Assembly (NCBI GenBank): GCA_030525085.1
Contig: JAUNFK010000005.1
Coordinates: 1 to 48,676, forward strand
Direction of reading: 5' to 3'
Origin: a bacterium
GTDB taxonomy: Bacteria > Bacillota_I > Bacilli_A > RF39 > UBA660
DNA length: 48,676 bases
Positions 9 through 40,789 of this stretch are shown one piece after another. The notes under the pieces are model-generated. The model saw only the letters and a list, made by a program, of their open reading frames with translations. It was not told where the DNA came from and searched no databases. A program made the translations under genes and the position numbers. Every line of letters starts with the position of its first letter. Within the stretch, counting starts at the first letter, position 1.

Positions 9-584
9 TTATTCAAGTACCTTATCTAAATATTTATCTATTATATTTCTAACATATTCAAAATCGTTATCATTTTGTATTTTTATACATTTTTCTAATA
101 ATTGACGATTTTTCTTTGAAATACTTTTAAATTTATTTTCTGCATCAATTTCTTCAATAATATTAAATGTAAACATTTTAACACCATTAAACTTAGTAAT
201 AACAAATGCTAATATGCTTTTAGTTTTATTTTTTTTATAAATTATTCTTTTTTTTATAACTCTTCTATTGATTTTTTTGCTTTTTAATAAAATAATCCTA
301 TCCAATTCTTTAAAATAATTAATATCTTTTTCTTGTTTATTTTCAAAATGCATTTCAATTGGATATAAATCTCTAATATTTGCATCTAGATCATACATTT
401 TATTTTTTTCTTTATTTAATTCTATTTCAACAAATTTTTTAAATTTTTCAGTGTGTATTATAGAATTTTTTCCAGTCAAATCATTTAATGCAATAAGCTC
501 TACTTCATATTTATAAATTGTTTTGTTAAGTTTACTTACATAGGCATCTTCAAATTCAAAAGTATCTCTTGCTAAAACACAAGG
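9..584 (-). CDS. Hypothetical Lys/Ile-rich protein in very AT-rich DNA, probably 5'-truncated at the spoVD junction
   Basis: ORF track gives 9..479 (TTG). The frame stays open upstream to 584 (PCVLARDTFEFEDAY...) with no ATG or RBS. Sampled GC is about 15-18%. Confidence 0.5.
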   Translation of the reverse strand, partial: PCVLARDTFEFEDAYVSKLNKTIYKYEVELIALNDLTGKNSIIHTEKFKKFVEIELNKEKNKMYDLDANIRDLYPIEMHFENKQEKDINYFKELDRIILLKSKKINRRVIKKRIIYKKNKTKSILAFVITKFNGVKMFTFNIIEEIDAENKFKSISKKNRQLLEKCIKIQNDNDFEYVRNIIDKYLDKVLE

Positions 585-1630
585 TTACAAGAGTTTTCAA
601 CAACGTTCAAAAAAGTTTCAGCACCATGACCACCAGCTTTCCAACATTTAATCCTTGCATTTTCAACAGAAATACTTCCGCCATCATAATAAGTATCTGT
701 AAATAAATTAACCTTTTCTTCATTAATCGCACTTGCAAGAGTAATAATTTTAAAAGTACTACCTGGCTCATAACTCATCCATATTGGTAAATTTCTATTT
801 ATTGTTTCAATATCATAATTCTGATAATTATTTGGATCAAAAGTAGGCCTACTACTCATCCCAATAATCTCCCCAGTATTAGGATTCATTACCATAATAA
901 GTGCATTTTCCGGGTTATACTTAGTCACAACATTATCAAGTTCTCTTTCGATTGCTTCTTGAACTCTAACATCTATTGTAAGAGCAATATTATTACCACT
1001 TACTGGTTTATCATAAACTTCACTCATTTTAAGTCTTAAACCTTTACCATCAGAATAATACTTTATTCCTCCATCAGTTCCTTTTAAATATTTATCATAT
1101 AAAAGCTCTATACCACTTAATCCCTGATTATCTATACCAACATAACCAATAACATGAGAAAGCATTTCCTTATAAGGATAATACCTTTTAGATTCTTTAA
1201 GTAAATATACGCCGTCATAATTAAGCGCACTTATTTCCTCTGCAATATCATATGATAATCTTCTACCTTCCGGATGAATTCTTTCAATAGAAGTATGCTT
1301 CGTTAAATGCGAATAAATATTTAAATAATCCGTATTTAAAATTCTTGCTAAATTCTCTGCAACTTCTTCTTTATTCTTAATTTGAACTGGTACAACCACT
1401 AAACTTGTCGTAGTAATATTATCTGCAAGTACTACACCATTACGATCAGTTATTTTACCTCTATCAGCTAGTATAGGTAAATTTCTACTCCATAAACTAT
1501 TCGCTAAATTATCGAGTTTATTTTTACTGAAAACCTGAATATAAAATATTCTTATAACAATTACTAAAAAAACTAAAAAAATTAATATACCAACTATCTT
1601 AATTCTCTTTTGCACAACATAATGAAACAT
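572..1630 (-). CDS. spoVD: Stage V sporulation protein D (class B PBP), N-terminal 352 aa only; interrupted or truncated
   Basis: N-terminal TM, RGKITDRNG, RYYP, GLSGIE, EPGSTFK (SxxK), CWKAGGHG and NSCN (SxN), then an immediate stop. The KTG motif and PASTA domain are missing. Lies downstream of the spoVA genes. Confidence 0.85.
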   Translation of the reverse strand: MFHYVVQKRIKIVGILIFLVFLVIVIRIFYIQVFSKNKLDNLANSLWSRNLPILADRGKITDRNGVVLADNITTTSLVVVPVQIKNKEEVAENLARILNTDYLNIYSHLTKHTSIERIHPEGRRLSYDIAEEISALNYDGVYLLKESKRYYPYKEMLSHVIGYVGIDNQGLSGIELLYDKYLKGTDGGIKYYSDGKGLRLKMSEVYDKPVSGNNIALTIDVRVQEAIERELDNVVTKYNPENALIMVMNPNTGEIIGMSSRPTFDPNNYQNYDIETINRNLPIWMSYEPGSTFKIITLASAINEEKVNLFTDTYYDGGSISVENARIKCWKAGGHGAETFLNVVENSCNLVF

Positions 1631-1644
1631 ATAATCACCTATTA

Positions 1645-1671
1645 ATTTTATGCAAACAAAAACCTAAGTAT
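1645..1671 (-). promoter_or_regulatory. Putative sigma-E promoter of spoVD
   Basis: Minus strand ATA-N16-CATAAAAT just upstream of the RBS AGGTGA. spoVD is sigma-E dependent in Bacillus. Confidence 0.5.
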
Positions 1672-2021
1672 CAATCCTTAGGTTTTAAAAATAACATTAA
1701 TATAAAGGAAAATACGACAGCAGCTACTACTCCAGTACTAACCTCACCAAGCATCCCACTAAACAAACCTATAAATCCATCTTGAACAAATCCTTTATAA
1801 GCCCCATTAGTAAGAGTGTTACCAAAAGACACAATTGGTAAGTTAGCTCCAGCGCCAACATAATCTGCAATCTTATCATAAACTCCAATTAAACTCAAGA
1901 TAGAACCAATTACAACAAATAAACTGGTAACATGTCCAAAAGTAAGCTTTGTATTTTCAAATATTATCTCACCTATCAAACATATAAGACCACAAAATAG
2001 AAATGAATAAACGAGTGTCAT
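1671..2021 (-). CDS. spoVAE: SpoVAE(b) / SpoVAC-family membrane protein
   Basis: 116-aa hydrophobic protein with FLFCGLICLIGE, GAGANLPIVSFG and C-terminal KPKD; follows spoVAD. Confidence 0.88.
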   Translation of the reverse strand: MTLVYSFLFCGLICLIGEIIFENTKLTFGHVTSLFVVIGSILSLIGVYDKIADYVGAGANLPIVSFGNTLTNGAYKGFVQDGFIGLFSGMLGEVSTGVVAAVVFSFILMLFLKPKD

Positions 2022-2965
2022 CTTTCCACCTCAATTTCTACAGCATGGGTAACCGAAGGAATACTCATCTTCTGATTCACCAATAATGGACTATGTAATG
2101 AACCAGTAGCAAGTAATAATATCTTTTTATACTTTTTATTATAGATAACATTATCAAACAAAAATAGTGGTAATGCTGCTGGCCCACTTGCTCCAGAGCA
2201 ATCAATCGTCTTATAAAAATTTTCTCCTGCATCCATATAATTTTTTAAATTATATCCTTCTTTTTCTAAAACTTTCTTAAAAATTTTACTTCCGCAAGCT
2301 CCCAAATCTCCAGTTAATATCAAATCATAATCAGTTTCACTTTTATGGCTCCTTTTTAAATGCTCTTTAAAAGTATCTACTGCACTAATTGCCATAACCC
2401 CACCCATATTAAATGCATCTTTAACAAAAGAATCTTTGACTTTGCCTAGCGTTGCACTTATAACTTTTATCTTACCTTCTTTATTTGTTACTTTTACTCC
2501 AATAGCTCCAGTAGCTGTGAATGTGCTTCTCACGGGTTTAACAGCTCCATATTCAACTGGAAATCTAAACTGTTTTTCAGCGGCTAAATTATGACTGCTA
2601 GTAATATATATTCCATTTTTAATTTCTTTAGCTTGTATCATATTAGCTATGCTTATTAATCCTGCAGCAAAACTTGCACACGCATTATAAACTCCTAAAA
2701 AAGGAATGTTCTCTTCTTCAGCCATCAAATTAGAAACTATCATTTGGTCCATCAAATCACTAGCACATATTACATCTATATCACTACTTTTTAAATGATT
2801 TAAGACAAACTTTTGCATCTTAACTTCAGCTTTCTCAAAAGTTTTCTCATTAAAATAGTAATCATTTAATCCTAAATTATATTTCTTTAAATTACCATCA
2901 CTTTTTTCTTTTGGTCCAATAATACTATACCAATCATCTATATAAACATTTTTATAATTAAACAT
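2018..2965 (-). CDS. spoVAD: Stage V sporulation protein AD (DPA binding)
   Basis: TFEKAE, PFLGVYNACAS, SSHNLAAEKQFRFPVEYG, DLILTGDLG, ATGSLHSP. Confidence 0.93.
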   Translation of the reverse strand: MFNYKNVYIDDWYSIIGPKEKSDGNLKKYNLGLNDYYFNEKTFEKAEVKMQKFVLNHLKSSDIDVICASDLMDQMIVSNLMAEEENIPFLGVYNACASFAAGLISIANMIQAKEIKNGIYITSSHNLAAEKQFRFPVEYGAVKPVRSTFTATGAIGVKVTNKEGKIKVISATLGKVKDSFVKDAFNMGGVMAISAVDTFKEHLKRSHKSETDYDLILTGDLGACGSKIFKKVLEKEGYNLKNYMDAGENFYKTIDCSGASGPAALPLFLFDNVIYNKKYKKILLLATGSLHSPLLVNQKMSIPSVTHAVEIEVER

Positions 2966-3398
2966 TAATAATCACCTTTATAACTGCACATATAAAACCA
3001 CTAACAATACCATAAAGTAAAACACTACCGGCAAGTCTAAAAAAATTAGCTCCTACACCAGTAATTAATCCATCATTTTTATAATCTAAAGCACTACTCA
3101 TTATGGAGTGAGCAAAACCTGTTATAGGTATCACAATACCACATCTAAATTTTGAAACAATATCATCAAAAAATCCAAGTCCTGTACACAAACACGAAAT
3201 AAATATTAAGATCACAAGCACATAACTTATAGCTTCACTAACTGGTAAATGATAATAATTTGTACATATCATTTTAATGCCCTCACCAAGAAAACCAATT
3301 AATCCACCAACAGTAAAGGAATTGACATAATTAATAAGTTTCTTATCTTTGGCCGTACACTCTTCTACCACTTTTAAATATTCTTGCTTTTTCATCAT
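2958..3398 (-). CDS. spoVAC: Stage V sporulation protein AC
   Basis: SFTVGGLIG, IPITGFAHS, GVGANFFRLAGSVLLYG. Start is more likely ATG 3398 than GTG 3404. Confidence 0.9.
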   Translation of the reverse strand: MMKKQEYLKVVEECTAKDKKLINYVNSFTVGGLIGFLGEGIKMICTNYYHLPVSEAISYVLVILIFISCLCTGLGFFDDIVSKFRCGIVIPITGFAHSIMSSALDYKNDGLITGVGANFFRLAGSVLLYGIVSGFICAVIKVIINV

Positions 3399-3409
3399 AA
3401 TCACATTTC

Positions 3410-3439
3410 TATTATGAGAAAGAAATTTAAAAATTATGC
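3410..3439 (-). promoter_or_regulatory. Sigma-G type promoter of the spoVA operon
   Basis: GCATA-N18-CATAATA on the minus strand matches the sigma-G consensus. The -35 overlaps the sigma-factor stop codon. Confidence 0.7.
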
Positions 3440-4087
3440 AGCTATAAATTCTTTTATCTTCTGTTTTCCCTTATTTTCTATTCTTGAAACCTTAACCTGA
3501 CTGATTCCAAGAGCTTTTGCTGTTTCCATCTGTGTTAAATCCTCAAAATATCTTATTTTGATAACTTTCTGTTCCATATCATCTAGACTATCTATACCAT
3601 CTTCTATCATCATATTAGTAATGTAATCAGTACTTTCACCAATACACTCTTTTATAGGTAAATAATCACCATTTAAAGTCTGATATTCATCATCTAAACT
3701 CATCATTTTACTTGTTAAAGTGACAACCTCTAAGTAAAGACTAGAATCTATTTCAAGGTATGAACATATTTCATCACTGCTTGGCATCCTTCCAATACGA
3801 TGTGCAAGAGCCATCCTAGCTTCTTCTATCTTTTTATAAAGTTTTAAATAAGCCTTATTAAGCTTAATATCTCTACTTTTATTAGCTAAATCATACATCT
3901 CCCCAAATATATACTTATAAGCATAATTTATAAAGGAAGCTGAAGATGCCTCATCATAATTTCGGTAAGCCTTTATTAAACCAATACACCCAGCCTGATA
4001 TAAATCATCAAGTTCTACATTATAGAACTTTTTAGCTATCTTATATATTAGCTTCTCATACTTTAATGTGAGGCTATATTCATCCAT
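3434..4087 (-). CDS. sigF: Sporulation sigma factor of the SigF/SigG family (SigF by synteny), short N-terminus
   Basis: DDLYQAGCIGLIKA (region 2) and RYFEDLTQMETAKALGISQVKVSRIE (region 4); lies between spoIIAA and spoVAC. Confidence 0.8.
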   Translation of the reverse strand: MDEYSLTLKYEKLIYKIAKKFYNVELDDLYQAGCIGLIKAYRNYDEASSASFINYAYKYIFGEMYDLANKSRDIKLNKAYLKLYKKIEEARMALAHRIGRMPSSDEICSYLEIDSSLYLEVVTLTSKMMSLDDEYQTLNGDYLPIKECIGESTDYITNMMIEDGIDSLDDMEQKVIKIRYFEDLTQMETAKALGISQVKVSRIENKGKQKIKEFIAA

Positions 4088-4095
4088 TTAATCAC

Positions 4096-4416
4096 CTATA
4101 TTTTTATTAATTTTATTGCACTAAGTTCATCTTCAGTTACATGAACATTCTCAAATCTAATACAAGTATTACAAATTATACCTTCTCCTAGATTCTTTCT
4201 AACAGCGCAAATTCCCTCTAAAAGTGATTCTTTACCTTTATCATCTATAACGTTAACGTTCTCTAGATTATAGACAATATACTTAATGCCTTGGTTTCCT
4301 ATAACAGGTATCAAATAATCATTCAAACACTTGTAAGTAACTTTAGTTAAATTACCACAAGGCCTAACAAATAGTATACCTTTTCGGTATTCCATATTTA
4401 TCTTTAACATACTCAT
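4096..4416 (-). CDS. spoIIAA: STAS anti-anti-sigma factor SpoIIAA-like, with degenerate phospho-site
   Basis: KGILFVRPCGNL and IVYNLENVNVIDDKG align to the SpoIIAA STAS core; directly upstream of sigF. Start may be ATG 4410. Confidence 0.7.
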   Translation of the reverse strand: MSMLKINMEYRKGILFVRPCGNLTKVTYKCLNDYLIPVIGNQGIKYIVYNLENVNVIDDKGKESLLEGICAVRKNLGEGIICNTCIRFENVHVTEDELSAIKLIKI

Positions 4417-4443
4417 CTCCTATTCTAATATAAATATTATTTA

Positions 4444-5670
4444 TTATAATTTATACCCTTTCGTCAAAATATACCTATTTTTCCCTATTAAATAAATAAC
4501 TAAAATGCATAATATAATTATTACTCGTTTACACTTTTTATGTTCACAGAAAGTTGTACATTTCTTCTCCTCTAAGATAGTGCAGTTATCTAAATACTTA
4601 TAAACTACCTTTTCTTTAAAACTAGGCATCCTATTTATTTTAATTTCTTTATTATTATCTGGAATATCAACAGTAACATTAAATAAATGATTATTAACCC
4701 ATAAATCATAATCGCCATTTTTATTTAAATCAATATTGCTTTTAATACTACTAACATTACCCTTAACTAATGTAAAAACATCATCCACACTATTAATTAC
4801 ATCTGATACTTCTATCCTATTTCTTTCATAATAATCATAAACTATAATATAATCACTATAATCAAGTTCATAATCGTCATAACTTTCTTCTTTATAATCT
4901 CCTTTTATTACATTTTCTTTAAAACATCCATAATACTTCTCTTCTTTATAAAAATAATTAATCACGTCACTGTAAGGTGTTTTAAATCCTAAAGAATTAA
5001 ATATCTCATCATACTCTTTATCATCAATAACATTCACATATTGCTCACTTACCCAGCGATTAACATAAATATTTGCAATGTATTTATTTAAAAGCGGTGG
5101 AACATAACTGTCATAACTAAAAAATAAAGTATAATTTGCTGAATCAACCTCAAACTCTCCATCATAATAAATAATAAAAGATAAATCTTTAAAATCATAC
5201 GCTTTATTTAAATCTATAATTAAATAAGGATTACTATCAAGATACGGACTTTCCACGTCAAATAATTCATCATATGAAAGAAGTTCATTTTTATAAAAAA
5301 CATCTATATGCTTTATTGGTGGAACAATATCATAATCAAATATCATCAGGTATCGCACTTTTTCAATATAACTACTTCTTAAATTTATCACTGCATTATA
5401 ACCGGCCAAATAATCTTTTTTATAATCCTTTACCGCCTTATAATCATCTAATACAGCTTTTCCATCGCACTCATCAATAAGAGTATACTTATAATCCTTA
5501 TTAACTTTTATATTTCTATAAAGCTTTACTTCCTCTCTTTTAAGTAACTCATTTTCCTCATAAAACTTATCAGTTCTTTCCTTAAACGAATAATCTGTAT
5601 AATATACACTTCCCATAACATTTACGGGAATAAAAACAAATAATAGTAATAAAATCTTAACCATATTCAC
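4444..5670 (-). CDS. Hypothetical exported protein with signal peptide and C-terminal TM anchor
   Basis: 408-aa Tyr/Asp-rich ORF with RBS AGGAGG and hydrophobic N- and C-termini. Confidence 0.7.
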   Translation of the reverse strand: MNMVKILLLLFVFIPVNVMGSVYYTDYSFKERTDKFYEENELLKREEVKLYRNIKVNKDYKYTLIDECDGKAVLDDYKAVKDYKKDYLAGYNAVINLRSSYIEKVRYLMIFDYDIVPPIKHIDVFYKNELLSYDELFDVESPYLDSNPYLIIDLNKAYDFKDLSFIIYYDGEFEVDSANYTLFFSYDSYVPPLLNKYIANIYVNRWVSEQYVNVIDDKEYDEIFNSLGFKTPYSDVINYFYKEEKYYGCFKENVIKGDYKEESYDDYELDYSDYIIVYDYYERNRIEVSDVINSVDDVFTLVKGNVSSIKSNIDLNKNGDYDLWVNNHLFNVTVDIPDNNKEIKINRMPSFKEKVVYKYLDNCTILEEKKCTTFCEHKKCKRVIIILCILVIYLIGKNRYILTKGYKL

Positions 5671-10574: not shown

Positions 10575-10604
10575 AAAAAAAGATTATAAATTAATTTATA
10601 ATCT
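10575..10604 (-). terminator. Terminator of paralog A
   Basis: AGATTATAAATT/AATTTATAATCT perfect palindrome followed by a U tract on the minus strand. Confidence 0.6.
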
Positions 10605-12547
10605 TATTTAACGATATAAGGGTCTTCGCTTGTACCAGTTCCGCCGGATAATTGAACACTTGAATCAAGGGCAATAGAAGGTCTGATGCGTGCCTTCATA
10701 GCAACCGGGTCACAATCACTTCCAAGTAAAATGCGATTATTATTTATAACAAACATACATGCTTCAGCACCTGTAAACCAAGCAGGCGTCATCGACCAAT
10801 ATTTTATACCACCAGTATTTTCCCATAAATAATTATAATCACCATTATAAAAACCATAATTACCAGCAAATATAATCTCGTCCATTGTTAAAAGTCCAAT
10901 TTTATAATCTAATGCTCCATTTCCATTAGTTATATCACTTACCGTAAATTTAGATAAATTACCGCCATCATTGTCATTCGAACATTTTAAAGATGGTTTT
11001 ATATTATTTGAAGATGATGCTAACTCTGTTAATCGAAGAGTAGCATTATATCCATTTGCATTTGTTCCATAACCAAAATTAGTGTCATTTTTACTATTAA
11101 CGTATGGAATGTTTATTGTAGTATCAGTTACAACACTTTTATCATTACACCATATCACATCAGCTAGTTTATCTTCATATGACATCAAATTATTTTTATA
11201 CCAAGTTTCTAAATTAGTTAGCACAGTACTTTTATTTATATTAGCTTGAGCCTCTGCATAACTACTGCCACCAGCTGTCCCATACATAAATCCTACATAT
11301 GCATTATCATCACCACTTGTATTAAATACAGAGCCAGTTGCTGTGTCAGAAAATTTAGCAAATGCGCCTGTATTAAGATTATTTACAGATGAGCAGGGAC
11401 TACTTACCCCATTAAGATTATTATTATGTAATACTAATTTAACAGAGCCATTGCCGGTTATTCGTACTATCCTCCAGCACATGTTAGCAAATTCTACATA
11501 ATTATTTTTTACTGTTCCTCTAAAATAATACGAAGTGCCATAATCATCTTCGGTACTCGAAAGAAGTGCTTCAGTTACATTTTTATTAGAACGAATTTCT
11601 TTATATGTAAGACTATCTGCTGTAGCTGAAACAACATAATAAATAGTATATAAATTAGTCGTATCCCTCATTGTTCCTGCGGAAGTGGAAGAAAATTGAT
11701 AAGGTAAATATTTACCAACCAAACTAGAATATGAATTAGCATATGTATCAGTGGTTACTTCAGTTCCAGTCAAGTTTATTTTATAACCGTTTGCTTCATA
11801 TCCAGTACCATAAGTTATATAAACGTTAGTATTCGAAAAAGTATCTGTAGTACTCTCTACATCATTATAGGTATAAGCACTAGGTTCGTACCCTGGATTT
11901 GAAATAGTCTTTTGAACAACATTATCAGCAAGAATCTTTTCACTTAAAGTCGGTTCATTTGAAGCACTAGTTACTACCACTATTTTCCCTGCCCAACTTT
12001 TATTCAAGCCTTGATCTGCAGTAACTGCAGCATCCATCCATATTCTTAAATCATATGTTTTCTCTTCATTAGCTTTTAGATAAATACTACTAAGAATATA
12101 ACCTTTTCTACTATTATCTATATCAGTTAATGTTTGACCACCTAATATAACAGAAGGATTACTTGTAGTACCACCAGGAGATAAATTAACTTTAATATAA
12201 TTATCACTTAAATAAGATGAACTAGTACTAGTTCTATATTCACTATCTATTGTTATATAAGCTTTAACATAAGAAGCACAATTATTTTTTATAGTAAAAG
12301 TAAAAGGTGTTTCCTTTAGTCCGTCAGCATCCGTTAGTGGAAATGCCTCAGTTAAAGCTATCTTTTCAGTATCTTCCGTTAGCGTTGTACTAAAACATGT
12401 CCTAGATGCTATTGTATTATTTTCACTTTGACTTAAATAAAGTCTAAACCAAGCAAAAGAGACTCCAATTATACATAGAACGGTAATAAGCATTCCATAA
12501 TATACTCTAAGTCTCTTTTTATCTGCATTATTTTTGTTATTTGTCAT
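10604..12547 (-). CDS. Surface protein paralog A: SipW-type signal peptide, TasA/camelysin-like N-domain, C-terminal CLec-like domain
   Basis: GVSFAWF signal end; DDYGTSYYFRG..NNYVEFA..WRIVRI and YWSMTP...IRPSIAL...GTGTSEDPY, shared with paralogs B and C. Confidence 0.75.
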   Translation of the reverse strand: MTNNKNNADKKRLRVYYGMLITVLCIIGVSFAWFRLYLSQSENNTIASRTCFSTTLTEDTEKIALTEAFPLTDADGLKETPFTFTIKNNCASYVKAYITIDSEYRTSTSSSYLSDNYIKVNLSPGGTTSNPSVILGGQTLTDIDNSRKGYILSSIYLKANEEKTYDLRIWMDAAVTADQGLNKSWAGKIVVVTSASNEPTLSEKILADNVVQKTISNPGYEPSAYTYNDVESTTDTFSNTNVYITYGTGYEANGYKINLTGTEVTTDTYANSYSSLVGKYLPYQFSSTSAGTMRDTTNLYTIYYVVSATADSLTYKEIRSNKNVTEALLSSTEDDYGTSYYFRGTVKNNYVEFANMCWRIVRITGNGSVKLVLHNNNLNGVSSPCSSVNNLNTGAFAKFSDTATGSVFNTSGDDNAYVGFMYGTAGGSSYAEAQANINKSTVLTNLETWYKNNLMSYEDKLADVIWCNDKSVVTDTTINIPYVNSKNDTNFGYGTNANGYNATLRLTELASSSNNIKPSLKCSNDNDGGNLSKFTVSDITNGNGALDYKIGLLTMDEIIFAGNYGFYNGDYNYLWENTGGIKYWSMTPAWFTGAEACMFVINNNRILLGSDCDPVAMKARIRPSIALDSSVQLSGGTGTSEDPYIVK

Positions 12548-17508: not shown

Positions 17509-18525
17509 CTAAATTTTCATCAGAGCTTGTAACACACTAGATAAATATTTATAAACCTTAGGGTCGATTCCCTTCATATTCTTTAAAATATCCCATATTT
17601 CACTTATATTCAAATGAAAATCAGAATCAAAATCTTTCCCTAGCCCCTTACATAATTCCTCTACAGTATCACCTAATTGTTTTTTATCAATAGCATCTAA
17701 ATTTTTAGTAGTCATCTCATGAATCTGTTTACTAACCTTAGAAAGCTTACCACTAACAAAAAATTCACCATAAGTATTCCAGCCAATTGGATAATGTTCA
17801 CTAAAAGCTAAATCCTTACTCTTAACAGCACTATAATTATCATTATACAAACACATCCCAACAACAGAACCTGTAGGTACAATATTAACAACTTTATTCT
17901 TTATTTTATTAAACTTATTTTCATATTCATCTTTTAAAAATCCAGGTCCGTCAAAATTATATATTTTTGCTACTTTCACTAAAACATTCTCATTCATCTC
18001 CATTGCAGAACTCATTGCTAAATTTCCACCCTTGCTATGTCCTGCAAGATAAATAACTTTATCACTATCTAGTACATTTTTACTAACGTAATCTATCGCT
18101 TTTGCTTGCGTATAAGTTGGATACTGATAATTAAGTCGTAAATTCTCAACCCAACCTATCATCGAACCGTCCGTTCCTTTAAAAACAACTAAAAGATTGT
18201 TATTAAAGCGTACGCACATTGCGCCAAACTGAGTATCTTTATTTCTAACATTTTCAAAATTACTTATTACTATATTTTCATATCTTTTACTAGATTTTAA
18301 CTTTTCTAGAAGTAAAAAAGCACTTGGCTTCATAACTCCACTTAAATCATCACTTTTAAAAGTTTCTGCATACATGTAAAAATCTTTAAATGATTTGCCT
18401 TCCTCAAATGAATCTACTGGTAAATATACCAAACAAGAAAAGACTAATGCATCCATTTGATTAAAACCAATACTATCAAAAGTATAATCTTTATAATAAT
18501 CTAAGTAATCACTTACCGTAAACAT
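17509..18525 (-). CDS. DUF2974/Mbeg1-like alpha/beta hydrolase (lipase-like)
   Basis: FNQMDALVFSCLVY, QFGAM, FKGTD, GHSKGGNLA, FDGPGF. Confidence 0.85.
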   Translation of the reverse strand: MFTVSDYLDYYKDYTFDSIGFNQMDALVFSCLVYLPVDSFEEGKSFKDFYMYAETFKSDDLSGVMKPSAFLLLEKLKSSKRYENIVISNFENVRNKDTQFGAMCVRFNNNLLVVFKGTDGSMIGWVENLRLNYQYPTYTQAKAIDYVSKNVLDSDKVIYLAGHSKGGNLAMSSAMEMNENVLVKVAKIYNFDGPGFLKDEYENKFNKIKNKVVNIVPTGSVVGMCLYNDNYSAVKSKDLAFSEHYPIGWNTYGEFFVSGKLSKVSKQIHEMTTKNLDAIDKKQLGDTVEELCKGLGKDFDSDFHLNISEIWDILKNMKGIDPKVYKYLSSVLQALMKI

Positions 18526-18601
18526 AATTTACACCTCAAAAACATTTTATCACATTTTTAAAAGAAATATAAATATGTTATAATTAAAATGGTGAATATA
18601 A

Positions 18602-37960: not shown

Positions 37961-39523
37961 CTAAACCACTTTGTATGGATTTTCACTTGTACCAACACCA
38001 GTTACAGTAACAGATGCTTTAAGAGAAATCGAAGGACGGACACCGAGACTGCTACCGACACCACCGTTGACGTAGAAGAAACCACTCGAACCGGCAACGT
38101 ACCAAACACGAGCGCGTAAACCAGCGAAATCAACAGGAGACATAGAACTCCACAGAACATCGGTAGCATTTTCTTGCAAGTAAGTAGTTGTATTATTCTG
38201 AGCAAAAGCATAACCAGCAAATGCAAGTTCATCTGCTGTTATTAAGCCTATCTTTGTTGTTATTTCACTCAATCCTTTATTACATTTTAAACTTGGACCA
38301 GTTCCACCAGCACTACCGCTTGCACTGACTAATCGTTTAGTAGCACCATAATAAGTTACATTTCTAGCATATCCTAAACCAGTTGGGAACGAAACAAGCG
38401 GAGCATATGTTGTATCTGTTATATTAGTTTTATCATTACACCATACTGTATCTGATATTTTGTCTTCAAATAGCACAAGATTATTACTATACCATGTTTC
38501 TAAGTTTGTTAGAATTGTACTTTTATTTGTATTTGCATGGGTGCTTGCATAATCTGATGCTCCCACTGTTCCATACATAAATCCCACATATGCGTTGTCC
38601 CTTTCATTCGTATTAAATGCACTTTTGTATGTTGTCCCAGAATATCTTGCAAATGCCGCACTAATATCATTATTTGCTGATGAGCATGGACTAGCAACGC
38701 CTGTTGTATTATCATTATGTAAAATAAGCTTTACTGTACCATCCCCATTAATTCTCACAATTCTCCAACACTTATTTGCAAATTCTACATAATTATTCTT
38801 AACATTACCTCTAAAATAATAACTTGTTCCATAATTATCTTCTGTACTTGATAAAAGAGCCTCACTAGCAATAGACACTGTTGTTCCTGGTGTAGTAACA
38901 GGCACTTTAACTTCATTGTTATATAATACTAATTCTGATAACACTCCATTGATTTTAGGGGCTTTAGTACTTTCAATTTCTACATGTGCACTAAATTCTG
39001 CACCTTGATTTGCATTTTGGCTAATAGTTTTTTTGGGGTAATATATCTTTAAAAGATATGTATGTTTAGCATTACTTGCTTTTGCAAAGTATCCCTTATT
39101 TAAATCAATAGACAAACCAGTGATATCAGTTTTATTTACTGAAGGTATCACCTCTCCATTTGTACTTGTATTAGTACTTACTAATTCATATTGTAATGGA
39201 TCAGATGTTTTAAATGTATTTAAGTCTACTACTAAAGTAAGTTTGTAGTACATTTCTGCATCTGTTGTATTATTTCCAGTTACAGTAATATTTTTAGTAG
39301 CCCATACTTCATCCCTTGGATATATTCCATCAAGACTAATATTTTTCCCACCATCATATGTTATTTTCATAGTTCCCGCGTCTGCTCTAACTGTAGTTGA
39401 TGTTTCTGAGGATAATCCAGCCGTGAAGAAAGCGTAAGAAATTCCAGCTACGCAGATAAGTGATATAACCATTGCATAAATCATTATTTTCTTCGGCATT
39501 TTTTGTTTTCTTTCTTGGCTCAT
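37961..39523 (-). CDS. Surface protein paralog C: SipW-type signal peptide, TasA-like domain, C-terminal CLec-like domain with VR-like tail
   Basis: GISYAFF; DNYGTSYYFRG; WSSMSP...ARVW...GVRPSISL...GVGTSENPY. Confidence 0.8.
   Translation of the reverse strand: MSQERKQKMPKKIMIYAMVISLICVAGISYAFFTAGLSSETSTTVRADAGTMKITYDGGKNISLDGIYPRDEVWATKNITVTGNNTTDAEMYYKLTLVVDLNTFKTSDPLQYELVSTNTSTNGEVIPSVNKTDITGLSIDLNKGYFAKASNAKHTYLLKIYYPKKTISQNANQGAEFSAHVEIESTKAPKINGVLSELVLYNNEVKVPVTTPGTTVSIASEALLSSTEDNYGTSYYFRGNVKNNYVEFANKCWRIVRINGDGTVKLILHNDNTTGVASPCSSANNDISAAFARYSGTTYKSAFNTNERDNAYVGFMYGTVGASDYASTHANTNKSTILTNLETWYSNNLVLFEDKISDTVWCNDKTNITDTTYAPLVSFPTGLGYARNVTYYGATKRLVSASGSAGGTGPSLKCNKGLSEITTKIGLITADELAFAGYAFAQNNTTTYLQENATDVLWSSMSPVDFAGLRARVWYVAGSSGFFYVNGGVGSSLGVRPSISLKASVTVTGVGTSENPYKVV
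38022..38165 (-). other. DGR variable-region-like segment of paralog C
   Basis: Hand count for 38031-38160: about 52% GC and about 9% A on the coding strand, against about 40% A sampled upstream in the same gene. Confidence 0.65.
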
Positions 39524-39548
39524 AAATAATCCCTATCTTTCTATAGAA

Positions 39549-39577
39549 AGTATATAACAACCTCCCCCCCGTGTCAA
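39549..39577 (-). promoter_or_regulatory. Sigma-A promoter of paralog C with a G7 tract in the spacer
   Basis: TTGACA-cGGGGGGGaggttgtta-TATACT, spacer 17 nt. Confidence 0.75.
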
Positions 39578-39641
39578 ATTAATATTTTATATAATTTATT
39601 TTATAGAATCAGACTATTTCTAATAAAATAATAAAATAAAA

Positions 39642-39664
39642 AAAGATAACAACTCGTTATCTTT
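39642..39664 (-). terminator. Terminator of the SPFH operon
   Basis: AAAGATAAC-N5-GTTATCTTT plus a U tract. Confidence 0.65.
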
Positions 39665-39667
39665 CAA

Positions 39668-40789
39668 TTAATCTAATTTTGTTCCGCAGTTAGAGCAGAA
39701 TTTACCAGAAGCTTTAGTTCCACAGTTAGGGCAGAAATTCATCTTACCTGCTGGAGCACTTTCCTCTTTCTTTTCTTCTCCACTTAAATCTGCTTTAGAG
39801 CCTTCAGTATTAGTAAATGCTGCGCCCATTGCATTATTCATCATACCATTAGATGCCATATTTACCATACCAACACCCATCATACCAGTTGCAGCTCCAT
39901 TACTATTATTAGCAGCATCAACTACAGCTTTACTCATACCACCAACAATAGCACCTTGTTGCATGTAATTATTACTTGATAATTCATAATTATCAATCTT
40001 ACGGTTAGATTCTTCATCTAAAGTTACTGACTCAATAATGAATGATTTAATACTCATACCACGGTCTCTGATATTTTGATCAAATACCTTCTCATCCATA
40101 ATTTCTTTAATTTTATCTGTATAAGATGGAAGTTCTAAAACTGGTGCTTTATTTTCAGAATTACCTAATTCATTAAGTACCTTTTGAAAACTAGCTTGAA
40201 CTTCACTACGCATTTGTTCACAAATATCATCTTTATAATAAACATCAGCAGTTCCAGCTACTTCTCTCATAAATACTGCTGGATCAGTAATCTTAAATGT
40301 ATACTTACCAAAACATTTAACATCTACTCTAAGTGGAGTAATTGTATTTGTCATTTGATTTGGAATTGGATGTGAATAATCCTGATAAGGTACTGGAGCT
40401 GGTGTTCCAAACTTATTATCAATAATCTCTTTAGCATTTATAAAGTAAACTGCTTGATCTTTATTAGTTGCTCCATTAAATGTAAAACGAGTCCACATTT
40501 CTTTAAATACTGCTCCAAAGTCACCTGCAAAAAATGATGGAGATGAGCTTTCATCAAAAGTATAAATACCTTCCTCAGCAGTAGCATCTAAAATTTTTCC
40601 ACTTTGGAAAATTACTGCTATTTGTCCTGGTGCTACCTCAATAGCACTCTTCTTAGTAATAACACCATTTTCAGTTGTTTTCTTAACCATTAATGTGTTA
40701 TTATCCATATTTTCACACTTAATAAACTCTTTCCATTGGTCTTTAAGTGTACTTGATACTGCCTTTCCAGCTGCTTTAATTAATCCCAT
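39668..40789 (-). CDS. SPFH/Band-7-like protein with a C-terminal double zinc ribbon (YdjI-like)
   Basis: DQWKEFI, VYFINAKE..KFGT..P, FGKYTFKITDP, CPNCG...CSNCG. Confidence 0.85.
   Translation of the reverse strand: MGLIKAAGKAVSSTLKDQWKEFIKCENMDNNTLMVKKTTENGVITKKSAIEVAPGQIAVIFQSGKILDATAEEGIYTFDESSSPSFFAGDFGAVFKEMWTRFTFNGATNKDQAVYFINAKEIIDNKFGTPAPVPYQDYSHPIPNQMTNTITPLRVDVKCFGKYTFKITDPAVFMREVAGTADVYYKDDICEQMRSEVQASFQKVLNELGNSENKAPVLELPSYTDKIKEIMDEKVFDQNIRDRGMSIKSFIIESVTLDEESNRKIDNYELSSNNYMQQGAIVGGMSKAVVDAANNSNGAATGMMGVGMVNMASNGMMNNAMGAAFTNTEGSKADLSGEEKKEESAPAGKMNFCPNCGTKASGKFCSNCGTKLD

What the first reader, a model, noticed from the sequence alone, without database searches (positions are those of the whole stretch)
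38022..38165. Second variable-region-like tail, probably from a different template
Paralog C's tail is about 9% A on the coding strand, against about 40% upstream. Only one of about 50 codons ends in A. Loop lengths differ from paralog B (SP to VW 9 vs 10 residues; W to GVRP 19 vs 16), so a single template cannot explain both by A-substitution alone. Inference: at least two template repeats or DGR cassettes serve this family.
Basis: partly seen in the sequence, partly recalled or inferred. Interest (0 to 1): 0.75.

Follow-up and report, generated by a model that had tools for sequence, protein, structure and literature searches.

The report
Frozen DGR-written tip of surface protein
The adenine-poor end of this surface-protein gene was written by a diversity-generating retroelement, a known system that rewrites one protein tip, but this genome shows neither the enzyme nor a matching template, so the tip is most likely a frozen leftover and an ordinary case.

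Summary
Window 38022-38165 is the C-terminal tail of a minus-strand gene (37961..39523, 520 aa). It has 9.7% A on the coding strand, and 1 of 47 codons ends in A where 15.3 are expected (p<5e-5).

It is a DGR variable region (VR) at the end of a C-type-lectin-like domain. Five congeners whose loci I read carry target-TR-MutS-like-Avd-RT cassettes, and 12 of 23 carry that RT. Their templates (TRs) are homologous to this tail. Orthologues of this gene vary exactly at TR adenine codons.

Tails B and C differ in length and in non-adenine bases. B fits the (9;16) template class and C the (9;18) class, each only with a 3-nt gap. One congener carries both classes.

This genome, 85% complete, has no DGR RT, Avd or TR. 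Its only RT is a retron. The conserved chromosomal site of the (9;18) cassette is empty here.

No TR found anywhere fits C. The best has 15 non-adenine mismatches plus the gap. C's only close relative shares 10 of 18 hypervariable residues, which 0 of 1435 comparable pairs reach. So C is most likely frozen.

The scan has noted orphan DGR regions on other DNA before.

The parts
37961..39523 (-). Gene C, 520 aa. It has an N-terminal hydrophobic signal or anchor, a beta-rich N-terminal half, and a C-terminal C-type-lectin-like domain of about 306 residues (residues 215-520).
   Evidence: ORF and translation. AlphaFold2 model of residues 215-520: pLDDT 96.5, pTM 0.94. Fold matches. More than 6492 homologues.
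38033..38152 (-). VR-C, the template-homologous stretch from W458 to P497. Its mutable core runs from V464 to L493 (38045-38134). Architecture is 9 residues SP->VW and 19 residues W->GVRP.
   Evidence: A depletion and codon test. Alignment to congener TRs. In the model it falls on strands 244-252, 257-263, 268-270 and 278-280 of the lectin-like domain.
38019..38041 (-). 3' junction of the VR, an IMH-like site. It is 23 nt, from the Val codon of GVRP to the first two bases of K502.
   Evidence: It is identical to the same stretch after two live VRs of congener G021 (L102, L107). The G021 TR differs here by a 1-nt shorter variant. Contigs of runs X1 and X2 stop aligning at 38026, inside it.
22988..25102 (-). 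Paralogue B, 704 aa. Its tail VR-B (about 23063-23176) has the architecture (10;16).
   Evidence: A3 0 against 10.3 expected; C3 16 against 4.0. Best fit is the class-2 TR, with 11 non-A mismatches and a 3-nt gap. It is the only G000 hit of the G022 class-2 TR (23057-23177, 72%).
10604..12547 (-). Paralogue A, 647 aa. It belongs to the same family, but its tail has ordinary composition and is not VR-like.
   Evidence: A 25%; A3 8 against 12.8 expected; C3 4 against 3.7.
18526..18601 (.). Empty site. This is the 76-nt spacer upstream of gene 17509..18525. In congeners G021 and G022 the class-1 DGR cassette (TR, MutS-like gene, Avd, RT) sits directly upstream of the orthologue of that gene.
   Evidence: Orthologue of 17509..18525 lies directly after the RT in L060 and L061 (71-73% aa). 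Gene order. The window is contiguous here, with no N in contig C8.

Best explanation
What it is. The segment is a variable region written by a diversity-generating retroelement (DGR). In a DGR, a reverse transcriptase copies a template repeat (TR) with errors at adenines. The cDNA then replaces the matching variable region (VR) at the 3' end of a target gene.

Where it sits. The VR lies on the last strands of a C-type-lectin-like domain of a secreted or surface protein. The protein belongs to a family with about 24 copies in this 0.94-Mb assembly.

Which template wrote it. C was written from a template of the (9;18) lineage. B was written from the (9;16) lineage. So two templates did write this family (inferred from alignments to congener TRs).

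State today. C most likely has no working template in this genome. After its last rewriting it gained one codon, and about 8 third-position C became T. It has been inherited largely unchanged, together with its only close relative P0002.

Why the signal persists. Adenine depletion lasts because the decay of NNC codons runs mainly to NNT, which adds no A (inference).

Shown: the composition, the homology, the fold, the absence of a cassette from the assembly and from the syntenic site, and the lack of re-randomisation against P0002. Inferred: the order of events, and that the missing 15% of the genome holds no matching cassette.
For: 1. Composition. A3 is 1 against 15.3 expected and total A is 14 against 31.2, p<5e-5. 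C-ending codons are 13 of 36 against 3.6 expected.

2. Cassettes in congeners. Five congeners whose loci I read (G016, G018, G021, G022, G023) carry TR, MutS-like gene, Avd and RT cassettes, and 12 of 23 carry a DGR-type RT. Their TRs align to C, including the 23-nt 3' junction, which is identical to that of live VRs.

3. Live DGR in the genus. G021's TR matches 4 of its own tails with 0-2 non-A and 18-22 A mismatches. Of 60 orthologues of gene C, 37 have the (9;18) tail. All 17 columns with more than 1.5 bits of entropy lie at the 19 TR codons with A in position 1 or 2. None lies at the 20 other codons.

4. Fold. The model has pLDDT 96.5. Matches: T. ramosa IgAse N-terminal lectin-like domain Z 12.6 (198 aligned, rmsd 3.9), Lcl Z 6.5, TvpA Z 6.0, TaqVP Z 4.4, Mtd Z 4.3.

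5. Different templates. C fits class 1 best and B fits class 2 best. Cross-searches agree.

6. Frozen state.
- No TR, Avd, MutS-like gene or DGR RT is in the assembly.
- The only RT is a retron (PADLOC RT_Ec107-like, 2.3e-124).
- The syntenic cassette site is empty.
- The best of 15 distinct TRs still has 15 non-A mismatches plus a 3-nt gap.
- No (9;19) TR turned up in metagenome, genome or viral scans.
- P0001 and P0002 are 86% identical outside the VR and share 10 of 18 hypervariable columns. For 1435 other pairs at 80-90% the median is 0.17 and the maximum 0.47, and none reaches 0.5.
- G021 holds decayed look-alikes. L108 has 15 non-A mismatches, C3 13 and A3 1.
Against: - The assembly is only 85% complete. 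In congeners the cassettes sit at contig starts, where assemblies break at the TR. A cassette could therefore be missing.
- Three other tails (C30, B, C10:1939) are also A3-poor and C3-rich. C30 fits a G021-type TR with only 5-6 non-A mismatches and no gap. That points to a DGR that was active recently, or still is.
- C keeps an intact 3' junction.
- TRs differ between species, so the 15 mismatches may partly reflect an unseen species-specific TR.
- Contigs of runs X1 and X2 are about 99.3% identical over 2.5-2.9 kb of flank. They stop aligning at 38026 and carry 289 more letters unlike the window. This would fit a different VR in a near strain. However, X1 depth is also near nil over 38852-40000, so a larger replacement is as likely.
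- Only two proteins carry this tail type, and the species is rare in the databases. The comparison with P0002 is therefore a single pair.
Confidence: 0.55

Rival explanations
1. VR-C is a live target. The organism carries, in the unassembled 15% or on an unbinned element, a cassette whose TR has the (9;19) architecture. That TR would use NNT rather than NNC codons and would have few adenines, so only about 8-10 codons vary.
For: The assembly is incomplete, and cassettes lie at contig edges in congeners. Four compositionally fresh tails of four different lengths are present. Congeners carry 2-3 RT hits per genome (G022, G019, G009, G017). The 3' junction is intact. All 9 residue differences between P0001 and P0002 in the VR lie at or beside positions that are Asn/Asp-coded in class-1 TRs. 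Contigs from X1 and X2 break at the VR edge.
Against: No such TR is among 15 distinct TRs from 30 cassettes. None appeared in the anchor-pattern scans of metagenome contigs (0 hits), of the genus (only C itself and two G023 tails) or of viral contigs (one chance hit). Only 2 proteins carry this tail, against thousands of class-1 variants.
Confidence: 0.3
2. The tail was imported ready-made. Recombination or gene conversion with another paralogue or strain carried a DGR-written tail into gene C. No DGR ever acted on this gene in this lineage.
For: Family genes are recombination-prone between strains. In X1-X3 the B gene is replaced or diverged over 23023-23446, with short pieces matching gene C. 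An X3 contig joins B's 3' flank to a C-like VR end (joints 23022>38212, 38248>23447, 23022>38021). Paralogues share a conserved 3' junction that could serve as a crossover site.
Against: Syntenic orthologues of gene C in congeners are themselves DGR targets. A history of direct writing is therefore the simpler reading. No donor tail was found.
Confidence: 0.1
3. The composition has nothing to do with a DGR. It reflects amino-acid content, codon preference or chance.
For: The tail is rich in Gly, Val, Ser and Phe, whose codons can lack A.
Against: With the residues held fixed, 0 of 20,000 codon draws reach the observed A or A3 count. The tail is homologous at the nucleotide level to TRs and VRs of congeners.
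Confidence: 0.02

Closest known systems
Treponema denticola DGR (TvpA plus seven remote targets)
   Same: It is a chromosomal DGR that diversifies the C-terminal VR of C-type-lectin-fold surface proteins in several paralogous genes scattered over the genome (PMC5758913, passages read). TvpA (2y3c) matches the model at Z 6.0 with 140 residues aligned.
   Different: In that survey the Treponema cassette is listed with an HRDC accessory gene. The congener cassettes here have MutS-like plus Avd genes. Here the genome with the finding has no cassette at all, and the tail fits no known TR.
DGRs of 'architecture D' (MSL + avd accessory genes, including the Legionella DGR) in Wu et al. 2018
   Same: Congener cassettes have a small MutS-domain-I-like protein (E 3.4e-5) and an Avd (NF033474, E 6.3e-6, below cut-off) between the TR and the RT. 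MSL and avd occurring together is described in PMC5758913 (passages).
   Different: Membership of the RT in that clade was not tested by a tree. The hosts are small-genome gut Bacilli.
DUF6273 (PF19789) DGR targets of gut phages and prophages (tentaclins; Faecalibacterium prophages)
   Same: [quoted passage not shown] Of 60 orthologues, 20 match PF19789.
   Different: P0001 itself does not reach E<=1 against PF19789. The genes are chromosomal and cellular, form a multi-copy family, and carry a signal or anchor. They are not phage tail or decoration proteins.
N-terminal C-type-lectin-like domain of Thomasclavelia ramosa IgA peptidase (PDB 9qa6)
   Same: It is the best structural match: Z 12.6, rmsd 3.9, 198 aligned, model 27-306 against chain 37-303, and Foldseek E 1.1e-4. 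It is described as a lectin-like core of double size (PMC12237041, passages read).
   Different: Identity is 16%. No peptidase domain follows here. The solved domain is not known to be a DGR target. A shared fold shows no shared function.

Membership tests
Active DGR target (VR with a cognate TR and RT) | A DGR-clade reverse transcriptase in the same genome | tested here: not met
   The only PF00078 hit in G000 is a retron RT. The G021 DGR RT finds nothing in G000 but hits 12 of 23 congeners (tblastn). The assembly is 85% complete, so absence from the organism is not proven.
Active DGR target (VR with a cognate TR and RT) | A template repeat that differs from the VR only at TR adenines | tested here: not met
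   An ungapped adenine-tolerant scan of all 32 contigs gave at best 27 non-A mismatches over 144 nt. The best of 15 distinct TRs from congeners and metagenomes has 15 non-A mismatches plus a 3-nt gap. Pattern scans found no (9;19) TR.
Active DGR target (VR with a cognate TR and RT) | Hypervariability among strains or orthologues confined to TR-adenine codons | tested here: inconclusive
   This is met for the (9;18) orthologues (17 of 17 variable columns at A codons). For the C-type tail only one relative exists, and it shares 10 of 18 such columns. Contigs of near strains break at the VR edge, but their letters could not be read.
DGR-written sequence (footprint) | Adenine depletion with an NNC/NNT codon bias beyond what the residues require | tested here: met
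DGR-written sequence (footprint) | Nucleotide homology to the TRs and VRs of related cassettes, including the 3' (IMH-like) junction | tested here: met
C-type-lectin-fold DGR variable proteins | VR on the C-terminal strands of a C-type-lectin-like fold | tested here: met
   The model has pLDDT 96.5. A long run of CTLD matches at Z 4-6.5 includes TvpA, TaqVP and Mtd, and the lectin-like IgAse domain scores Z 12.6. Z values under 8 are common for unrelated folds. The case rests on the consistent list and on the top hit.
Pfam DUF6273 (PF19789) | A match to the family HMM | tested here: inconclusive
   P0001, B and A have no hit at E<=0.1, and P0001 has none at E<=1. Of 60 orthologues, 20 match, best E 2.1e-6. 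Some homologues carry a precomputed PF19789.
SipW-dependent (TasA/TapA-type) secreted proteins | A match to the signal-peptide or family models | tested here: inconclusive
   There is only a weak TapA hit (TIGR04087, E 0.05, 13 bits against a cut-off of 80). The resemblance of the N-terminal motif to SipW-type signals is recalled, not tested.

The most novel reading that the evidence does not exclude
This roughly 1.1-Mb gut bacterium may run a multi-template hypervariation system. In this reading, several DGR cassettes hidden in assembly gaps, including an undescribed adenine-sparse (9;19) template, keep at least four lectin-tipped surface proteins (C, B, C30, C10) variable in parallel. The many adenine-poor tails of odd length in congeners would then be targets of further unseen templates rather than relics.
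Probability: 0.25. Interest if true: 0.5.

Novelty: new member of a known kind. Interest (0 to 1): 0.3.

Why it matters
The finding adds a well-documented case of a DGR footprint without its element, in a lineage where live cassettes, decaying tails and ordinary tails can be compared side by side.

It also carries a practical lesson. Adenine-poor tails of different lengths do not count live templates. A congener with one detected template carries such tails in at least five length classes.

The footprint outlives the element because NNC codons decay mainly to NNT, which adds no adenine.

For annotation, the gene should be called a lectin-like surface protein with a DGR-type variable tip. It should not be taken as evidence of a DGR in this genome.

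Tried and rejected
- Template in the genome. BLASTN with short words found only paralogues. The adenine-tolerant scan found nothing.
- First pattern. It had a miscounted N run and found nothing. It was corrected.
- Anchor pattern for a (9;19) template or VR. Metagenome contigs gave 0 hits. The genus gave C itself and two G023 tails. Viral contigs gave one unrelated 55%-GC hit.
- The 21-nt element conserved after the TR (GTTGARYTCRTRGCAATGTCT). It hit 24 metagenome loci, of which 21 have a TR: 13 are (9;18) and 8 are (9;16). It hit 10 genome loci, of which 7 have a TR. It hit 1 viral locus, without a TR. None is (9;19).
- Reads. Only Logan contigs of three manure runs of one study and one gut run could be laid. 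No contig aligned across 38027-38165 at 88% or more. The 289 loose letters of X1 and X2 were not shown. These runs therefore tell neither sameness nor variation of the VR.
- Full-length AlphaFold2 model on 60 close orthologues. It was too poor to use (pLDDT 41.6).
- Profile of A2 against PDB sequences: no hit.
- Not run: a table of the kinds of non-adenine mismatches in the G021 tails. The spectrum for VR-C (8 of 15 are third-position C>T) was read by eye from the alignment. The G021 comparison rests on the counts only.
- The DNA of P0002 could not be fetched. Its differences from C are known only at the residue level.
- No supplementary files were opened, so Supplementary Table S1 of PMC5758913 (target counts) was not seen.

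Full report
WHAT IS THERE

The finding lies in the last 50 codons of a minus-strand gene, 37961..39523, which encodes a 520-residue protein with a hydrophobic N-terminal signal or anchor. On the coding strand the 144 nt hold 9.7% A, against 35.6% for the whole gene. One of 47 whole codons ends in A.

I held the residues fixed and drew synonymous codons from this genome's own usage. That gives an expected 15.3 A-ending codons and 31.2 A in all, against 1 and 14 observed. None of 20,000 draws reached the observed values. The rest of the gene is ordinary.

C-ending codons are enriched instead, 13 of 36 between SP and RP where 3.6 are expected. In the whole window only this tail and the tail of paralogue B (22988..25102) fall below 16% A on that strand.

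THE FAMILY AND THE FOLD

The genome (G000) is 942 kb in 32 contigs, 30% G+C and 85% complete. It holds about 24 genes with this C-terminal domain.

Public proteins related to gene C number in the thousands. The C-terminal 306 residues have 4966 representatives at E<=0.001.

Pfam finds nothing in C, B or A. However, 20 of 60 close orthologues match DUF6273 weakly, best E 2.1e-6.

A model of residues 215-520 built on 76 diverse sequences is confident (pLDDT 96.5, pTM 0.94). Its fold matches are:
- Best match: the double-sized C-type-lectin-like N-terminal domain of the Thomasclavelia ramosa IgA peptidase (Z 12.6, rmsd 3.9, 198 aligned).
- Next: a long list of C-type-lectin domains. These include Legionella Lcl (Z 6.5) and the DGR variable proteins TvpA (Z 6.0), TaqVP (Z 4.4) and Mtd (Z 4.3).
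- The nature of the solved domain comes from passages of PMC12237041.

The adenine-poor stretch falls on the last strands of this domain. Gut-phage DUF6273 targets carry their variable regions at the C-terminal end of the domain, on a surface beta-hairpin (PMC10743442 and PMC11792537, passages).

THE RETROELEMENT EXISTS IN THE GENUS

Five congeners (G016, G018, G021, G022, G023) carry a second RT type. An RT of this kind is found in 12 of 23 other genomes of the genus.

In the loci I read, the order is template repeat, a 120-residue protein with weak likeness to MutS domain I, an Avd-like protein, then the RT. In G022:C17 a target gene precedes the template. MSL together with avd is a described DGR architecture (PMC5758913, passages).

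Counting residues SP->VW and W->G-x-RP, the templates fall into length classes:
- (9;18) in G021, G022 (second cassette), G023, G016 and G009.
- (9;16) in G022 (first cassette) and G018.
- (9;17) in G019.
- Others further off.

G022 carries two classes at once.

The element is live in the genus. G021's template matches four of its own tails with 0-2 non-adenine and 18-22 adenine mismatches. Among 60 orthologues of gene C from metagenomes, 37 have the (9;18) tail (30 distinct). All 17 columns with entropy above 1.5 bits lie at the 19 template codons with A in position 1 or 2. None lies at the other 20 codons.

HOW TAIL C RELATES TO THESE TEMPLATES

C is homologous to class-1 templates over its whole length. 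It ends in a 23-nt junction identical to that of live G021 targets, where the template itself has a variant one base shorter.

But C fits no template. Among 15 distinct templates from 30 cassettes (congeners plus 21 metagenome loci), the best needs a 3-nt gap and still leaves 15 non-adenine mismatches. By my reading of that alignment, 8 of the 15 are third-position C in the template against T in C.

The other tails compare as follows:
- B fits class 2 best, with 11 non-adenine mismatches and a 3-nt gap.
- A third tail, on contig C30, fits class 1 with 5-6 mismatches and no gap.
- A fourth, on C10, fits class 2 with 12 mismatches and a gap.

Searches of G000 agree. G021's class-1 template finds only C30. 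G022's class-2 template finds only B.

So B and C were written from different template lineages.

NO ELEMENT IN THIS GENOME

- G000's single RT (contig C32) is a retron RT (PADLOC RT_Ec107-like 2.3e-124; NCBIfam retron St85 2.1e-66, just under its cut-off).
- The MutS-like, Avd and RT proteins of G021 find nothing in G000 (best E 0.1-2.5).
- An ungapped scan that tolerates any mismatch at template adenines finds no template for B or C on either strand of any contig.
- In G021 and G022 the class-1 cassette lies directly upstream of the orthologue of window gene 17509..18525 (71-73% identity). In the window that position is a 76-nt spacer with no gap in the assembly.

The assembly is incomplete, and cassettes in congeners tend to sit at contig starts. 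A cassette elsewhere therefore cannot be excluded.

IS C STILL BEING REWRITTEN?

Three lines say probably not.

First, searches for a (9;19) template came back empty:
- Anchor patterns gave 0 metagenome hits, only C and two G023 tails in the genus, and one chance hit in viral contigs.
- A 21-nt element conserved after the template gave 24 metagenome loci (21 with a template), 10 genome loci (7 with one) and 1 viral locus (none). All templates found were (9;18) or (9;16).

Second, only one other protein in the 5.8-billion collection carries this tail type. It is P0002, 85% identical overall. Outside the variable region the two are 86% identical, and at the 18 hypervariable columns they share 10. 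Among 1435 other orthologue pairs with 80-90% identity outside, the median is 0.17 and the maximum 0.47, and none reaches 0.5.

Third, G021 shows what unattended tails look like. Beside its four exact targets it has (9;18) tails with 5, 5, 7, 8, 10, 12, 15 and 22 non-adenine mismatches. Their C-ending codons fall from 20-23 to 12-13 of 35, while A-ending codons stay at 0-2 until the last of them. C, with 15 mismatches, C3 of 13 and A3 of 1, sits beside L108 in that series.

The same genome also has adenine-poor tails of architectures (9;15), (9;16), (14;17) and (9;25) with only a (9;18) template detected. Odd lengths are therefore common and do not by themselves count templates.

WHAT SPEAKS FOR ACTIVITY

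- G000 has four compositionally fresh tails.
- C30 is close to a known template.
- C's junction is intact.
- The nine residue differences between P0001 and P0002 inside the region all lie at or next to positions that class-1 templates code as Asn or Asp. Seven of them are in the 3' half. Partial rewriting from the 3' end would also produce this.
- Contigs of two manure runs of one study match the window at about 99.3% from 35176/35538 up to 38026, inside the junction. They then carry 289 letters unlike it. In those runs, however, depth over 38852-40000 is near nil and gene B is replaced over 23023-23446. A swapped gene is as likely as a rewritten tip, and the letters could not be read.

VERDICT

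The tail is a DGR-written variable region (about 0.9). It was written from a different template lineage than B (about 0.85). It is more likely a frozen, orphaned copy than a live target (about 0.6 against 0.3).

DGRs with several remote targets, lectin-fold or DUF6273 variable regions and MutS-like accessory genes are all in print (PMC5758913, PMC10743442, PMC11792537; passages only). I did not search the papers for orphan variable regions as such beyond the terms.

This scan has noted orphan DGR regions on other DNA nine times. One is on a SipW/TasA-like protein of an AT-rich gut bacterium. The case is an ordinary new member of a known kind.

Noticed in passing
Congener G021 (loci L099-L127; TR at L022:234-338): One (9;18) template faces four tails with 0-2 non-adenine mismatches. 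Eight more (9;18) tails have 5-22 mismatches. At least seven further adenine-poor tails have other lengths, among 28 family genes in a roughly 1.1-Mb genome. If most are or were targets, this exceeds the largest target counts quoted in the 2018 survey (eight in tandem, seven remote; passages of PMC5758913).
   Followed up: partly
G000 contig C32, locus L001 1270..2214 (-) and 749..1252 (-): A retron reverse transcriptase (PADLOC RT_Ec107-like, 2.3e-124) is followed by a 167-residue protein with no family hit, presumably its effector. No ncRNA was looked for.
   Followed up: partly
L018, L020-L023, L063 and 28 loci among L072-L137, about 20-50 nt after each TR: A 21-nt element (GTTGARYTCRTRGCAATGTCT) is conserved after both (9;18) and (9;16) templates. 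It found 21 further cassettes in metagenome contigs and 7 in genome contigs. It may belong to the structured RNA that primes cDNA synthesis. It was not folded.
   Followed up: partly
window 22500-24300 and 38026-40000, runs X1-X4: Near-identical strains (flanks 98.5-99.3%) carry diverged or replaced versions of genes B and C. Contig joints mix B's flank with C-like pieces. These surface-protein genes are strain-variable as wholes, not only at their tips.
   Followed up: partly
Alignment A1 (orthologues of gene C): Pairs that are 97% or more identical outside the variable region mostly have the same variable region (33 of 35 share at least half of the hypervariable columns, median 1.0). Pairs at 80-90% share a median of 0.17. 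On this scale, rewriting is slow relative to strain divergence.
   Followed up: yes
window 37964-38881 (-), model me9a422e5b748: [quoted passage not shown] Passages of PMC12237041 report that IgAse constructs lacking this domain are comparably active, and that its differences from canonical lectin domains point to different functions.
   Followed up: partly
window 572-5670: By eye, the window encodes sporulation-type genes (SpoVA-like, a sigma factor, an anti-sigma antagonist). Records of congeners are titled 'uncultured Tenericutes' or 'Bacilli'. This was not tested with family models.
   Followed up: no
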